Source of the DNA: Candidatus Hodarchaeota archaeon
GTDB lineage: Archaea > Asgardarchaeota > Lokiarchaeia > Sigyniarchaeales > SOKP01
Assembly: GCA_048887225.1 (NCBI GenBank)
Contig: JBHLJY010000004.1
Location: 96,001-160,000 of the forward strand
Direction: 5' to 3'
DNA length: 64,000 nt
Within the stretch, counting starts at the first letter, position 1. Each line of letters opens with the position of its first letter. The notes under the pieces are model-generated. The model had not been told where the DNA came from. It saw nothing but the letters and a program-made list of their open reading frames with translations, and made no database searches. The position numbers were made by a program, and so were the translations under genes. Below, one piece after another: positions 26,468 to 32,174 of this stretch.

Positions 26468-27406
26468 TTATATTCCCTTACGAATATACTTTAATTTATG
26501 ATTTTGAGGAATTTCAGCTCGAAATGATTTAATAATCGTTAATGCATCAATTAATTTCTCGTATTCTTCATAAGAGAGGCTATCGAAAAGTAAAATTCCT
26601 TCTCCTTCTTTAAAGGGCTCGGTATTAAACCATATATCATAATTTCCATTGGATTCTTCAATCTCAAAAGATTTTAAACCTTTTAAATTTAATATTGCTA
26701 TTTCCCCTTTTAACTGGAAAATATTTTTAGGGATTTTCGAAAAATCGTAAACTTTATTTAAAATACTATACGAAATAATTTTTTTCTCAGTAATTACGTA
26801 TCTTATTTCGTAATTTTTAAGCTCGATTTCTTTCTCAGCATCTATATTTTTAAATCTTCCTTTATATTTCTTGTTCTTTGATAATGTCTTAATCCAATCT
26901 TTTTTTAATTCTATATTTAAGCTTTTAATCCATAGTATTTTATCCTCTGCGTCTAGAAGATTTTTGATTTCATCTAATTTTGAAATCTTTATAATATCTT
27001 CAGGCTCAGCAAATAATTTTTCCTCTTCCAACTTTTCTCGTTCACGATTTCGAAGATATCGCATATCCGATAATCTTTCTGTCATTTCAATTGATTCTAA
27101 ACCAAAAGCATTTAAAAATTCTTCCTGTTCATCACCCTGATCAACAGGTACTACCTTACAATAAGGTAATCCTTGGTATTTTAATTCAGATTGAACTTTA
27201 GTAGCTGTTTTAGAGCCAATAAATCGTTTTCTGACATTTGCTCTAACACCTTTCCATAGATATATTCTTTTTAAGTCTGTTCTTACTATGATAAATGCTT
27301 TATCAGGATGAAAATAATCTCCTAAATATTCTTGTTGAAATTCGAGCTTTTTTCGATCTCCTGACTCTTCTATTTCATAAACAATGAATTTATGTAGTTC
27401 AGACAT
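26468..27406 (-). CDS. Gelsolin-domain protein with unrelated C-terminal domain
   Basis: HPDKAFIIV...RIYLWKG...RKRFIG...VDQGDEQEEFLNAF matches the gelsolin-fold pattern. Confidence 0.75.
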   Translation of the reverse strand: MSELHKFIVYEIEESGDRKKLEFQQEYLGDYFHPDKAFIIVRTDLKRIYLWKGVRANVRKRFIGSKTATKVQSELKYQGLPYCKVVPVDQGDEQEEFLNAFGLESIEMTERLSDMRYLRNREREKLEEEKLFAEPEDIIKISKLDEIKNLLDAEDKILWIKSLNIELKKDWIKTLSKNKKYKGRFKNIDAEKEIELKNYEIRYVITEKKIISYSILNKVYDFSKIPKNIFQLKGEIAILNLKGLKSFEIEESNGNYDIWFNTEPFKEGEGILLFDSLSYEEYEKLIDALTIIKSFRAEIPQNHKLKYIRKGI

Positions 27407-27585: not shown

Positions 27586-28416
27586 ATGAATTTGCCAAAA
27601 AATCTTGAACTTAAACTATATAATCTTATCTCTTTTCTAAAAAATAAGAAAATAATTGTTGCTTTCTCAGGAGGCGTAGATAGTTCACTTCTGTCTTATC
27701 TTTCAAAAAAATACGCAAAAGATACTCTACTTATAACTGAGCGTTCAATTCTATACCCTGAAGAAGAACTTGAATTATCAAAGTTATTTGCTAAAAAGCA
27801 TAATATCTCTCATATGATTATAGAACAAAATCCCCTAAATGATGAAAAATTTAAATTAAATCCAATTAATCGTTGCTATATTTGTAAAAAAGGACTTTAT
27901 AATGAAATTATTAAAATTAAAAATAACCAACATTTTGATATAATTTTAGATGGATCAAACTTAGATGACTTAAACGATTATCGTCCGGGCATGCAGGCCT
28001 TAGAAGAATTAGGTATTTTTACCCCTTATATCGAATTTAAAATTAATAAACAAGAAATTAGAGAAATAAGTAAATTCTTTGGTTTAGATGTTCAATCCAA
28101 ACCTTCAATGGCATGCTATTCTTCTCGGATACCGTACAATCAAATCATAAGCGAGAAAAAATTAGATTTAATTAGAGAAAGTGAAAGATTTCTAAAACAA
28201 ACTTTTAATTTAAAGCAATTGAGAGTAAGACTTCACGATGAAAATTTAGCACGTATAGAATTCTTAAAATCCGATTTACCTAGAATTTTAACCGATGTAA
28301 ATCTACAAAAAATAAAAAATAAATTCAAAGAACTTGGTTTTTATTACATAACAATTGATATAGAAGGTTTTCGCAGTGGCTCTATGAATGAAGTATTATG
28401 TCTTAAACAAGACTAA
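27586..28416 (+). CDS. larE: ATP-dependent sacrificial sulfur transferase LarE
   Basis: AFSGGVDS PP-loop, NRCYICK, DGSNLDD..DYRPG, KPSMACYSSRIPY, RVRLH, GFRSGSMN. Confidence 0.9.
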   Translation: MNLPKNLELKLYNLISFLKNKKIIVAFSGGVDSSLLSYLSKKYAKDTLLITERSILYPEEELELSKLFAKKHNISHMIIEQNPLNDEKFKLNPINRCYICKKGLYNEIIKIKNNQHFDIILDGSNLDDLNDYRPGMQALEELGIFTPYIEFKINKQEIREISKFFGLDVQSKPSMACYSSRIPYNQIISEKKLDLIRESERFLKQTFNLKQLRVRLHDENLARIEFLKSDLPRILTDVNLQKIKNKFKELGFYYITIDIEGFRSGSMNEVLCLKQD

Positions 28417-28427
28417 ACTTTAGGGTT

Positions 28428-29854
28428 TTAAGCCGTTAATTTTTCAATGTAGTCTATAACTTTTTTTCTCTTCTCTAACGCTTTAATTGCCGCCTTTTCA
28501 ATTCTATTTTCCATCTCATCGATTAATTTTGGAGTTTGTTCACCAATTTCCTGTTTTATTTTAGTATATGCAGATTCTCGAAACCTTGGCAATATATCTT
28601 TTTTATCTTCATTTTCAAAAATCATAGAAACTTTATTCGAATCATCAACGTACCCAATTTCCGCACATCTAATACCATTATTACCTAAATCAGAAATTAT
28701 TTTCTCAGAAACCTTTTCTGAACAATATATAAGAAGTGCGTCTAATGATACTCCCAAATAATCAACACCGACTTTATCTAATAACTTTAAAACTGTCGAA
28801 TTAACAAGTTTTCTAACTTCTTCTTCATAAATAGTAACACCACAATTTGCCTCATAATTTATCTCATATAAATCACCTCTAAGACCTCCATTGGTCACAT
28901 CGCACATGGCATGAATTTCATCTAAATTATCTGAATTTAAGATTATTTCACATGCTTCGAGGAATTTAACGTTCAACGTCTCTTTTACTACGTCATGATT
29001 ACCAGAATAGATTGCTGTTGTAGTAATCGTCCCACCTCCAGCACCTTCAGTCATTAAAATTTTATCTCCAACTTTAATATTTTTTCGAGCCAATAACGTA
29101 TCGCTTGCAAGACCTACAGCTGCCACACCTCCAACTAAACGATCTCCAATCACCATATCTCCTCCAATTCTTAATGTTGATCCTGCCGTTATTGGAACTT
29201 TTGCTATTTCGGAAACTGCTGAAATGCCCGCCATGAAATCGAACAATTTTCCAACATCAGAATCATCTCCTAAATGAATATCAACCATTATCGAAATAGG
29301 TTTTGCCCCTTTCACATATAGATCCCGAAGTGCAGCCCTCGATACGCTTATGTAAGCTCGTTACATGAAATTACGTGAAAGCCGCATACAAATGGAAAGT
29401 CGCTTAGACGAGAATGAATCCCTTCCATTTTGGAAACAATGATCAAATTATTAGGATCGTAAAGTTCTCCTTTTAATCCCTTTAAATCTCGTAGCCGAAC
29501 AGCTCCCGCATCATCCAAAGAACTAGGTGCTAAATATGCTTTTTGTTTGGTTTCAGATAATTCAGCAATTAATTTATGTACAAAAAAATCTCCCGCACCT
29601 CGACATCCCACTCCCTGTTTTCCGACCGAAACATCAGCATTATAAATATCTAATAATTCTTTAATGAAAGAATCTTTTACTGAACTGATATCACTCTTTT
29701 TGGATTCATCTAAAACTGCTTCAGCTAGCTTCTTTGCTAAATTTTGACCGATCTCTTTATAATCAAGATATTCTTGGACTAATCTTCTAATGATTTGTTG
29801 GTCAGAATTACCCTTTTTAATTAATCTTCTTGTTAAACCTTCTAAATCACTCAT
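28428..29854 (-). CDS. AIR synthase/HypE-like (PurM superfamily) protein, two exons: 29854-29371 and 29341-28428 (465 aa spliced)
   Basis: Exon 1 MSDLEG...GVGCRGAGDF...LDDAGAV...GIHSRLSDFPFVCGFHV; exon 2 (T)RAALRDLYVKGAKP...GSTLRIGGD...CDVTNGG; contiguous once 29 nt are removed. Confidence 0.88.
29342..29370 (-). other. 29-nt bulge-helix-bulge (BHB) intron in mRNA
   Basis: 10-bp exon helix, 4-bp central helix, two 3-nt bulges (AAU, AUC), closed intron stem; canonical cleavage restores the frame. Confidence 0.85.
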
Positions 29855-30120
29855 ATATATAACACTTAATATTTTAATTCTATCAATCAATAATATAACA
29901 ACGATTTTATTAAGTTAAATAGCAAAAATTAAAAGAAAAATTCTTTGATTACTTAATATTCTGGAATAATTTATTCCAAAAATTAAATATATTTGAACTT
30001 AAATATTTTTAACCAAATCAAGTTAAATTTTAAAAATTATATTAAAGAATTGAAAGATTGTTTTAAATTTTTATTCTATTAATTAATTCTTTTACAAAAA
30101 TAAAGAAAAAAAGTTGTCTA

Positions 30121-30237: not shown

Positions 30238-31083
30238 ATGGAAACTTTTGTATTTGCTCTTATATTAGCCTTATTAGCTGGACTCTCTACAACAGTAGGG
30301 TGTATTATTGCATTCTTAGTGAAAAAACCTAGTCCAGAATTTCTTTCTATAATCATGGGATTTTCAGCGGGAGTGATGATTCTTGTATCTTTTGTAGAGT
30401 TATTAATAGAAGGAATAAACATTAATGGATTTATTATGGGGATTATCTTCTTTTTTGTTGGATTGTTTATGATGTTATTGGTTGATATGACTGTAACTCA
30501 TAAATATGAATTTGAAGACACTTTTAAAATTCTTTATGACGAAAATTTAGAAAAAAATGAGAATAGCCTTCCCCCCTCTACTCGAAGACGACGACGTCGA
30601 TATAGATATGGTCGCGAAAAAACAGAGGTGAACTTAGAAAAAACTTCTTTATTAGTATTTTTAGGTGTATTTATTCATAATATCCCAGAGGGAATAGCTA
30701 CTTTTATAGGTACAATACAAAGTATAGAACTAGGTATTATATTAGCCGTTGCAATTGCACTTCATAACATTCCTGAAGGAATCGCAGTTGCAACTCCAAT
30801 ATACATTAGTACTGAAAGCAGAAAAAAAGCATTTCTTTGGTCGTTTTTGTCAGGAATCAGCGAATTTATTGGAGCGGTTGTTTTTGGATTGATTCTTTAT
30901 CCTTTTATTAACAATTATCTATTAGGAGCAATGCTTGCTATTGTAGCCGGACTTATGGTTTATATATCGTTGGATGAATTATTACCAGTTTCTCATTCCC
31001 TTGGAAGAGAACATCTATCAATCTTAGGACTTATAATGGGAATGCTTGTAATGTCTTTAAGTTTAGTGTTGTTTTTAAAATAA
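30238..31083 (+). CDS. zupT: ZIP-family metal transporter ZupT
   Basis: GFSAGVMI, IHNIPEG and LHNIPEG motifs, YISLDELLP. Confidence 0.9.
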   Translation: METFVFALILALLAGLSTTVGCIIAFLVKKPSPEFLSIIMGFSAGVMILVSFVELLIEGININGFIMGIIFFFVGLFMMLLVDMTVTHKYEFEDTFKILYDENLEKNENSLPPSTRRRRRRYRYGREKTEVNLEKTSLLVFLGVFIHNIPEGIATFIGTIQSIELGIILAVAIALHNIPEGIAVATPIYISTESRKKAFLWSFLSGISEFIGAVVFGLILYPFINNYLLGAMLAIVAGLMVYISLDELLPVSHSLGREHLSILGLIMGMLVMSLSLVLFLK

Positions 31084-31169: not shown

Positions 31170-32174
31170 ATGAAAGTCAGAATTACTACGCCCTGCAGAA
31201 TACATTTATCTTTAATAGACGAGAACGGTTATACTGGTAGGGTTGATGGCGGAATCGGTCTTATGCTTGATCAACCGAATGTTGTTTTAGAGGTTTCTAA
31301 TCACGCAAGTAAATTTACTATTGAATGTGATAAATATTATAGAGAATCGATAAATGTAATAAATCAAAAAGCTTCGAAAATCTTTAAATTATTTCACATA
31401 AATAATAAGAACTTTCATTTTGATTTAAAAAAGTATTATCCTAGGCATGTAGGATTAGGTTCAAGAACTCAGCTAAGTCTAGCAATTGGTACTGCGATTG
31501 CTACATTAAAAACTATGGATATCCCTGTAGAAGAAATTACTAAGATGGTCGAAAGAGGGGGAACCTCGGGGATAGGTTGGCGAGGTTTTGAAACCGGAGG
31601 TTTTATTCTCGATGGTGGTCACGATTTTGGTGTAGGAAAGGAAAAAGAAAACTTATTACCATCTTCAGCAGCAAATTCAGCCAATCCAGCATTAACAATA
31701 TCACGGTATGATATTCCAGAAAATTGGCGTTTTGTCCTTGTAATTCCTAATGTAAAACCTGGGGCACATGGAGAAGATGAAGTAAAGATTTTCAAGAATT
31801 ATACTCCTATCCCAAGAGAAGAAGTTAACGAAGTTTCACATCAAATTCTAATGAAGGTCTTACCTGGAATCTTAAAGAATGATTTAGAATGCTTCGGGGA
31901 AGGATTGAAGAGAATTCAAAATATTGGATTCAAAAAAATTGAAATAAGCTTACAACACCAAATTGTGAGGGATATCTTAATGTTTTTCGAAAATAATGGT
32001 GTAAAGGCTTACGGAATGTCTTCTTTTGGACCAAGTGTTATTGGTATTACAGAAACAGATGCAGAAGCAGAAAAATTAAAAAGATCTGTAGAAGAGTTCA
32101 CAAAAGATATTGGCGGTCATTATTATATCTGTAAGCCCAATAATACTGGAGCAAAAATAGAATATATTGAATGA
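31170..32174 (+). CDS. mptG: Beta-ribofuranosylaminobenzene 5'-phosphate synthase (GHMP family)
   Basis: TPCRIHLSLID, GRVDGGIG, HVGLGSRTQ, RGGTSGIG, LDGGH, GMSSFGP. Confidence 0.9.
   Translation: MKVRITTPCRIHLSLIDENGYTGRVDGGIGLMLDQPNVVLEVSNHASKFTIECDKYYRESINVINQKASKIFKLFHINNKNFHFDLKKYYPRHVGLGSRTQLSLAIGTAIATLKTMDIPVEEITKMVERGGTSGIGWRGFETGGFILDGGHDFGVGKEKENLLPSSAANSANPALTISRYDIPENWRFVLVIPNVKPGAHGEDEVKIFKNYTPIPREEVNEVSHQILMKVLPGILKNDLECFGEGLKRIQNIGFKKIEISLQHQIVRDILMFFENNGVKAYGMSSFGPSVIGITETDAEAEKLKRSVEEFTKDIGGHYYICKPNNTGAKIEYIE

What the first reader, a model, noticed from the sequence alone, without database searches (positions are those of the whole stretch)
29331..29386. Canonical bulge-helix-bulge intron interrupting a protein-coding gene
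Seen: ORFs 29348-29890 and 28428-29315 are halves of one AIR-synthase/HypE-like protein, separated by 29 nt carrying an in-frame TAA and a frameshift. The mRNA reads UGCGGCUUUC-ACGU-AA^U-UUCAUGUAACGAGCUUACAUAA-GCGU-AU^C-GAGGGCUGCA. UGCGGCUUUC pairs with GAGGGCUGCA (10 bp, 3 G-U). ACGU pairs with GCGU (4-bp central helix). Each strand has a 3-nt bulge (AAU, AUC) 3' of that helix. The intron closes with UU/AA plus AUGUAA/UUACAU around a CGAGC loop. Established: archaeal splicing endonuclease EndA cuts BHB motifs after the second bulge nucleotide and RtcB ligates; mRNA examples are rare (cbf5 in some Crenarchaeota is the classic). Cutting here removes 29342-29370 and gives UUU CAC GUA ACG AGG GCU GCA = FHVTRAA, in frame, 465 aa in total. 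Inference: this is a spliced mRNA in an Asgard-type archaeon, in a gene family I do not know to carry introns. Splicing could act as an on/off switch, since unspliced mRNA yields a truncated ~168-aa product.
Basis: partly seen in the sequence, partly recalled or inferred. Interest (0 to 1): 0.95.

Follow-up and report, generated by a model that had tools for sequence, protein, structure and literature searches.

The report
tRNA-type mini-intron in Asgard enzyme gene
A 29-base insert with the exact RNA shape cut by the archaeal tRNA-splicing enzyme interrupts an otherwise intact enzyme gene of an Asgard archaeon. Twenty-six related genomes carry the same insert with compensating base changes, so the messenger RNA almost certainly has to be spliced, which the papers I could search report in archaea only for the gene cbf5.

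Summary
On the minus strand a 29-nt insert (29342-29370) splits a 465-aa AIR-synthase/PurM-superfamily gene inside its AIRS N-domain. Its lowest-energy fold is a strict hBHBh' motif.

- **Junction:** removing the 29 nt gives ...CGFHV-T-RAALRD..., which aligns without gaps to uninterrupted orthologs.
- **Distribution:** of 139 class-level genomes with the ortholog, 27 carry a 29- or 30-nt insert at the identical site. All 27 are in one family, in 6 genera.
- **Structure conservation:** 96.9% of predicted pairs hold across the 27 copies, and six stem pairs show double compensatory changes.
- **Exon constraint:** flanking exon codons keep 9-10 of 10 outer-helix pairs in insert carriers, against a mean of 6.7 in intronless genes.
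- **Selection:** both exons are under purifying selection.
- **DNA and machinery:** independent DNA datasets contain the insert. The genome encodes two EndA subunits and RtcB.
- **Rivals:** bypassing, frameshifting, a split gene and a pseudogene each fail at least one test.
- **Not shown:** no RNA data exist, so splicing itself is inferred. The "on/off switch" idea is untested.

The same genome's rtcB also carries a 29-nt BHB insert. This scan had already noted many such mRNA introns, on other DNA of this genome and in other archaea.

The parts
29371..29854 (-). Exon 1 (161 codons plus the first base of the Thr codon). It starts at ATG 29854, which matches the ortholog start MSDLEGL. It encodes the N-terminal extension and the first ~40 profile positions of the AIRS N-domain.
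29342..29370 (-). 29-nt BHB intron: U + 22-nt hairpin + GCGU + AU. Read in the exon-1 frame it carries a UAA, and its length shifts the frame.
28428..29341 (-). Exon 2, including the stop codon. It encodes the rest of the AIRS N-domain and the AIRS_C domain.
29377..29386 (-). Outer helix h, 5' strand (exon 1, UGCGGCUUUC).
29373..29376 (-). Central 4-bp helix, 5' strand (ACGU, exon 1).
29370..29372 (-). Bulge 1 (AA|U). The predicted 5' cut lies between 29371 and 29370.
29348..29369 (-). Inner helix h' (intron hairpin): UU/AA plus AUGUAA/UUACAU, with one bulged C and a CGAGC loop.
29344..29347 (-). Central helix, 3' strand (GCGU, intron).
29341..29343 (-). Bulge 2 (AU|C). The predicted 3' cut lies between 29342 and 29341.
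29331..29340 (-). Outer helix h, 3' strand (exon 2, GAGGGCUGCA).

Best explanation
The 29 nt at 29342-29370 are a canonical archaeal bulge-helix-bulge (hBHBh') intron in the pre-mRNA of a PurM/AIR-synthase-superfamily enzyme gene of an Asgard archaeon.

Inferred mechanism: the transcript folds so that exon 1 and exon 2 pair with each other (10-bp outer helix) and with the intron (4-bp central helix). The genome's two-subunit splicing endonuclease cuts after the second nucleotide of each 3-nt bulge. RtcB then joins the exons and probably circularises the 29-mer. This restores the frame and creates the Thr codon A|CG.

Shown here:
- the motif itself;
- its conservation and covariation in 27 genomes;
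- exact agreement of the predicted junction with intronless orthologs;
- selection on both exons;
- presence of the enzymes.

Inferred, not shown: the cleavage and ligation events, and any regulatory role.

The intron is old within one family and has been lost precisely many times.
For: 1. Motif: the MFE fold of the 56 nt equals hBHBh'.
2. Junction: 112 of 139 orthologs in the class are single open frames of about 460-470 aa. The 15 intronless loci I read base by base have one codon (Thr, once Ser) between FHV and RA[AC], exactly what splicing predicts. The spliced product aligns without gaps to P0004.
3. Recurrence: 27 genomes in 6 genera of one family have an insert at the identical site. 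Four are 29 nt lacking one stem base, one is 29 nt lacking a loop base, and the rest are 30 nt.
4. Covariation: 96.9% of pair cells are standard pairs, against 31-54% when partners are slid. Six inner-stem pairs change on both sides, and 0 of 500 shuffles reach the observed values.
5. Exon constraint: the outer helix keeps 9-10 of 10 pairs in all 27 carriers, against a mean of 6.7 (range 3-9) in 15 intronless orthologs. In carriers the Thr codon is always ACG and the Arg codon always AGR.
6. Frame independence: 29-nt (frameshifting) and 30-nt (in-frame, with TGA or TAA) versions coexist. This is expected only if the insert is removed before translation.
7. Selection: dN/dS is 0.05-0.22 for both exons between carriers, the same range as intronless pairs.
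8. Real DNA: contigs from three independent studies span the insert without a gap or joint.
9. Machinery: there are two ~200-aa EndA paralogs. One best matches the catalytic repeat and the other the structural repeat of fused EndAs, which fits the (alpha-beta)2 type reported for Asgard archaea (PMC5829648). RtcB is present.
10. A second case in the same genome: rtcB carries a 29-nt insert of the same architecture between PGGVGY and DINCG. It is absent from all but two of the other relatives that had rtcB.
Against: There is no RNA evidence. No RNA run holding this sequence was available, so spliced junctions and circular introns are unobserved.

The free-energy z-score of the motif alone is modest (-2.41).

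The 27 carriers are related, so the shuffle and rank statistics overstate independence.

My genome-wide motif-plus-ORF scan gave no enrichment over a null. I therefore could not count such introns independently in this genome.

RtcB itself is interrupted here, so ligase supply depends on the same pathway.
Confidence: 0.88

Rival explanations
1. Translational bypassing (hopping), as in phage T4 gene 60. The ribosome takes off at GUA (Val) and lands on the GUA inside GCGUAUCG, skipping the insert and producing FHV-S-RAA.
For: In the window a GUA lies at both ends, and landing there would be in frame. One intronless ortholog (L005) naturally has Ser at this position.
Against: G101 has ACGGAUCG with no GUA landing codon. 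G098 has a GUU take-off codon. G062 would give Ala. No stop codon follows the take-off codon.

What is conserved is BHB geometry, including an exon-exon helix 10 bp long, which bypassing does not need. Carriers always have the splice-created codon ACG = Thr, the ortholog consensus.
Confidence: 0.03
2. The gene is broken. Either it is a pseudogene, or it is a genuinely split gene whose two halves are made as separate polypeptides.
For: Public annotation calls only a 286-295-aa C-terminal protein for the closest relatives (P0001-P0003). A GTG at 29315 could serve as a start.
Against: Both halves are under strong purifying selection in carriers. The break lies inside the AIRS N-domain, and a restart at GTG 29315 would drop the conserved RAALRDLY block.

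The insert is conserved with compensatory changes over 6 genera. Most 30-nt variants have no in-frame start codon near the junction. A pseudogene would not keep 9-10 of 10 exon pairs.
Confidence: 0.03
3. Programmed recoding, with the hairpin as stimulator: a +1/-2 frameshift or stop-codon readthrough.
For: A stable hairpin sits next to a stop codon.
Against: The 29-nt versions would need a frameshift plus avoidance of UAA, while the 30-nt versions would need readthrough of TGA or TAA. No single recoding mechanism fits both.

The translated insert would add 9-10 residues that no ortholog has, and the insert's sequence varies freely in the loop.
Confidence: 0.02
4. The BHB is an EndA cleavage site used mainly to destroy or down-regulate the mRNA. 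Ligation would be inefficient or conditional, so most transcripts would never yield full-length enzyme.
For: A down-regulation role was discussed for cbf5 (PMC2738675). The ligase gene of this genome carries its own intron.
Against: Strong purifying selection on exon 2 in carriers implies that full-length protein is made. Repeated precise losses without other changes suggest the intron is dispensable rather than an essential regulator.
Confidence: 0.04

Closest known systems
cbf5 (pseudouridine synthase) pre-mRNA intron of Crenarchaeota (Watanabe 2002; Yoshinari 2006; Yokobori 2009, PMC2738675)
   Same: Both are BHB-type introns inside a protein-coding gene. Both hosts have a hetero-oligomeric splicing endonuclease. 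Both show a patchy distribution explained by one gain and lineage-specific precise losses.
   Different: The host gene here is an uncharacterised PurM-superfamily enzyme, not an RNA-modification enzyme. The lineage is Asgard rather than Crenarchaeota. At least 8 changes of state are needed on the gene tree, against 2 losses reported for cbf5. It appears to be one of several such introns in the same genome (rtcB confirmed here; others only noted by this scan). Splicing of cbf5 was shown experimentally; here it is inferred.
Canonical archaeal pre-tRNA intron (hBHBh' at position 37/38; Marck and Grosjean 2003)
   Same: The geometry is identical: two 3-nt bulges on opposite strands, a 4-bp central helix, and cuts after the second bulge nucleotide. 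After splicing, a 7-nt loop closed by the outer helix remains.
   Different: The outer helix is made of two coding exon segments, so codon choice is constrained by RNA structure. No tRNA body is present (no Rfam match).
HAC1/XBP1 unconventional cytoplasmic mRNA splicing in eukaryotes (Ire1 plus tRNA ligase/RtcB)
   Same: Both are spliceosome-independent removal of a short intron (26 nt in XBP1) from an mRNA. Both change the reading frame, and in metazoans the exons are joined by RtcB.
   Different: Ire1 recognises two stem-loops, not a BHB, and that event is a regulated stress switch. No regulation is shown here.

Membership tests
Archaeal BHB (EndA-type) intron | Two 3-nt bulges on opposite strands separated by exactly 4 bp | tested here: met
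   Sequence. The MFE fold shows it. The central helix is 99.1% paired across 27 copies.
Archaeal BHB (EndA-type) intron | Flanking helices h (exon-exon) and h' (intron) stacked on the bulges | tested here: met
   Outer helix 98.5% paired. Inner helix 94.1% paired, with 6 doubly compensated pairs.
Archaeal BHB (EndA-type) intron | Cuts after the second bulge nucleotide give a functional, in-frame product | tested here: met
   The junction equals that of intronless orthologs, and the 465-aa product aligns without gaps.
Archaeal BHB (EndA-type) intron | Host encodes the splicing endonuclease and an RtcB-type ligase | tested here: met
   Two EndA paralogs over the cut-off. RtcB over the cut-off, itself interrupted.
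Archaeal BHB (EndA-type) intron | Spliced RNA and excised (circular) intron observed | not testable with these tools
   No RNA run holding the sequence was available.
Gene-60-type translational bypass | Matched take-off and landing codons, with a stop codon directly after take-off | tested here: not met
   G101 lacks the landing GUA. G098 has a GUU take-off. The codon after take-off is AUU or AAU, not a stop.
AIR synthase-related (PurM superfamily) protein | Pfam AIRS N-domain plus AIRS_C over gathering scores | tested here: met
   Exon 2 alone scores AIRS 29.6 (cut-off 24) and AIRS_C 55.8 (cut-off 23.1). In the ortholog P0004 the AIRS domain spans the junction. The protein scores below the cut-offs of ThiL, HypE, SelD and PurL, so its subfamily is unassigned.

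The most novel reading that the evidence does not exclude
This intron is one member of a population of EndA/RtcB-dependent mini-introns in many protein-coding genes of this Asgard family, including the ligase gene rtcB itself. Cells would use incomplete or conditional splicing as a post-transcriptional gate on enzyme production. That would be a pre-spliceosomal form of interrupted, regulated genes in the closest prokaryotic relatives of eukaryotes.
Probability: 0.2. Interest if true: 0.9.

Novelty: new member of a known kind. Interest (0 to 1): 0.72.

Why it matters
**Published record.** In the papers I could search, archaeal mRNA splicing by the tRNA machinery is documented only for cbf5 of Crenarchaeota. 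Here a metabolic-type enzyme gene of an Asgard archaeon carries a textbook BHB intron, and the comparative support is unusually clean.

**Exon codon choice.** RNA structure visibly constrains the codons of the flanking exons in insert carriers.

**Gain and loss.** The pattern shows that precise intron loss is frequent in these archaea.

**Scale of the phenomenon.** Together with the rtcB intron confirmed here, this suggests that interrupted protein genes are a regular feature of some Asgard lineages. That bears on how intron-bearing genes and RtcB-dependent mRNA splicing arose before eukaryotes.

**Annotation.** Pipelines mis-call these genes as truncated proteins: P0001-P0003 are annotated as 286-295-aa fragments.

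Tried and rejected
- **Genome-wide scan of G000.** I searched for BHB motifs that rejoin two open frames, in three versions. Hits did not exceed a null built from random positions, because AT-rich operon junctions dominate. I therefore give no independent count of mRNA introns.
- **Two strong-looking hits were false.** C1:371542-371574 is an ABC-ATPase/permease gene junction. C1:231284-231313 is an in-frame TGA, probably selenocysteine, in an HdrA-like gene.
- **RNA evidence.** No RNA holder was listed. The raw-read run X21 laid no reads, so it gave no test.
- **Rfam.** No match anywhere in 28300-30100.
- **Repeat element.** The 56 nt have no other copy in the genome, so this is not a dispersed repeat.
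- **"Stops inside" matches.** For G138:C113 and G100:C144 these were the natural stop codons, not further introns.
- **Literature.** Searches for BHB or mRNA introns in Asgard archaea found only tRNA-intron papers.

Full report
**Observation**

The ORFs are 29348-29890 and 28428-29315. They are the two halves of one gene. The downstream frame, read from 29339, matches Pfam AIRS from profile position 43 and AIRS_C over their cut-offs. The upstream ORF alone matches nothing.

RNAfold's minimum-free-energy structure of the 56 nt is a strict hBHBh' motif:
- a 10-bp exon-exon helix;
- a 4-bp central helix, ACGU/GCGU;
- two 3-nt bulges (AAU and AUC), each 3' of its central-helix strand;
- an intron hairpin.

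This handedness is the one found in pre-tRNA 37/38 introns (my knowledge). The energy z-score is only -2.41, so the case rests on comparison with relatives, not on energy.

**The junction**

A search of 40 relatives, and then of all 161 genomes held for the class, found the ortholog in 139 genomes. Of these, 112 are single open frames of about 460-470 aa. In the 15 intronless loci that I read base by base, exactly one codon (Thr in 14, Ser in 1) lies between ...CGFHV and RA[AC]LRD....

Cutting after the second nucleotide of each bulge removes 29342-29370 and creates A|CG = Thr. The resulting 465-aa protein starts at ATG 29854. It aligns 1-462 to the uninterrupted ortholog P0004 without a gap, at 81% identity, and the junction block is identical. 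In P0004 the AIRS N-domain spans this point.

**Recurrence and covariation**

Twenty-seven genomes carry an insert at the identical site. All are in family f1:

| Genus | Genomes with the insert |
|---|---|
| g1 | 4 |
| g11 | 9 |
| g2 | 8 |
| g4 | 3 |
| g8 | 2 |
| g9 | 1 |

Most inserts are 30 nt, in frame, and carry a TGA or TAA. The g1 and g4 copies are 29 nt through loss of one stem base, and one g11 copy is 29 nt through loss of a loop base.

On the 27-sequence alignment A1:
- 96.9% of pair cells are standard pairs, against 31-54% when the 3' partners are slid by 1-3 columns;
- six of the nine inner-stem pairs show changes on both sides, for example U-A to C-G in 9 sequences;
- no shuffle out of 500 reaches the observed values.

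The sequences are kin, so these numbers overstate independence. The direction of the evidence is still unambiguous.

**Exon constraint**

The outer helix is made of codons for Cys-Gly-Phe and Arg-Ala-Ala. All 27 carriers keep 9-10 of 10 pairs. Fifteen intronless orthologs keep 3-9, with a mean of 6.7.

Carriers use only ACG for Thr and AGR for Arg. Intronless genes use four Thr codons and both Arg codon families. RNA structure therefore constrains synonymous sites only where the insert is present.

**The gene is alive and the DNA is real**

dN/dS between carriers is 0.05-0.11 for exon 2 and 0.08-0.22 for exon 1, the same range as intronless pairs.

Contigs from three independent sediment studies span the insert with no gap and no joint. 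The 27 carriers also come from separate assemblies. An assembly artefact is excluded.

**Machinery**

The genome has two ~200-aa EndA paralogs, both over the Pfam and TIGR00324 cut-offs. One aligns best to the C-terminal (catalytic) repeat of fused EndAs and the other to the N-terminal (structural) repeat. This matches the (alpha-beta)2 enzyme with the L1 loop reported for Asgard archaea (PMC5829648). RtcB is present.

**Rivals**

- **GUA-to-GUA bypassing.** It fails in G101 (no landing GUA), G098 (GUU take-off) and G062 (would give Ala). It also does not explain the exon-exon helix.
- **Recoding.** It cannot serve both the 29-nt and the 30-nt versions.
- **Pseudogene or split gene.** This conflicts with purifying selection, with the break lying inside a domain, and with conservation of the insert.
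- **Repeat or known RNA.** The insert is not a repeat and matches no Rfam family.

**Evolution**

On a maximum-likelihood tree of 70 orthologs the insert needs 12 changes by parsimony. At least 8 of these are forced by well-supported branches. Sister pairs differ in state: G000/G002 against G006/G009, G062 against G017, and G051/G052 against G054/G016.

An AU test rejects monophyly of the carriers (p = 3e-11). The inserts are clearly homologous: same site, similar stem sequence. The simplest history is therefore one gain near the base of the family followed by many precise losses. Lateral replacement of alleles cannot be excluded. This is the pattern described for cbf5, but more extreme (PMC2738675).

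**Context**

While checking for the ligase I found that this genome's rtcB is itself split. The break lies between PGGVGY and the metal-binding DINCG motif, and the insert is 29 nt with the same 1+22+4+2 layout:
- central helix UUGG/CCAA;
- an 8-bp hairpin;
- a weak outer helix.

G002 and G021 share this insert, with structure-preserving changes. Every other rtcB junction I read (9 relatives) is contiguous, and the remaining complete rtcB matches are long single open frames.

Notes of this scan report further BHB inserts in other genes of the same genome: thiolase, iolM, cspA, an FGGY kinase, acs and an acyl-CoA dehydrogenase. They also report such inserts in rtcB of many other archaea, and in this same PurM-like gene in other genomes. 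Of these I checked only the acyl-CoA dehydrogenase candidate, and only for structure and for the domain content of its second exon. My own motif-based census failed to rise above noise.

Aragorn finds only 31 tRNAs in this 98%-complete genome, 14 of them with introns. This agrees with reports of heavily interrupted tRNA genes in Asgard archaea (PMC11291895).

**Literature**

In the library searched, BHB introns in archaeal protein-coding genes are described only for cbf5. Papers on Asgard introns concern tRNA genes.

**Verdict**

This is a genuine, canonical BHB intron in an mRNA: a new host gene and a new lineage for a known kind of element. Splicing itself remains to be shown at the RNA level, and the proposed regulatory switch is speculation.

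Noticed in passing
G000:C13:33458-33486 (outside the window; locus L023 about 1473-1501): The genome's own rtcB is interrupted by a 29-nt BHB-type insert between PGGVGY and DINCG. G002 and G021 share it. Every other rtcB junction I read in relatives is contiguous. The ligase mRNA would need ligase to be spliced.
   Followed up: yes
window about 29480-29900 compared with L002 (G002): Nucleotide identity between G000 and G002 drops stepwise. It is about 93-98% across exon 2, the intron and the last ~100 nt of exon 1, then 55-80% further upstream (N-terminal half 78% against C-terminal half 95% at protein level). This suggests a recombination breakpoint inside exon 1.
   Followed up: partly
G000:C1:229908-231857 (outside the window; locus L052): An HdrA-like gene has an in-frame TGA in the motif FPTDDCGI-TGA-VLAP, where selenocysteine occurs in some HdrA proteins. 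It is probably a selenoprotein, not an intron.
   Followed up: partly
window 31170-32174 (+), 30238-31083 (+), 27586-28416 (+): Neighbours of the host gene are a beta-RFAP synthase (mptG, over the equivalog cut-off), ZupT, and a convergent LarE-type PP-loop sulfur transferase. The uncharacterised PurM-like host may belong to methanopterin-type cofactor chemistry, as other scan notes suggest.
   Followed up: partly
window 26468-27406 (-): A 312-aa protein has a weak gelsolin-repeat match (below the cut-off). This is a eukaryote-signature type protein typical of Asgard archaea.
   Followed up: no
G000:C4:215764-215799 (outside the window; locus L050 965-1000): A 36-nt insert splits an acyl-CoA dehydrogenase gene. 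It has central helix GGCU/AGCU, bulges AUA and AUG, and a 7-bp hairpin. Exon 2 carries the Acyl-CoA_dh_M and Acyl-CoA_dh_1 domains.
   Followed up: partly
whole genome G000: Aragorn finds only 31 tRNA genes, 14 of them with introns, in a 98%-complete genome. Many tRNA genes are probably too interrupted to be detected.
   Followed up: no
proteins P0001-P0003: Public records annotate the closest relatives' copies of this gene as 286-295-aa C-terminal fragments. Annotation pipelines therefore truncate intron-bearing genes.
   Followed up: no
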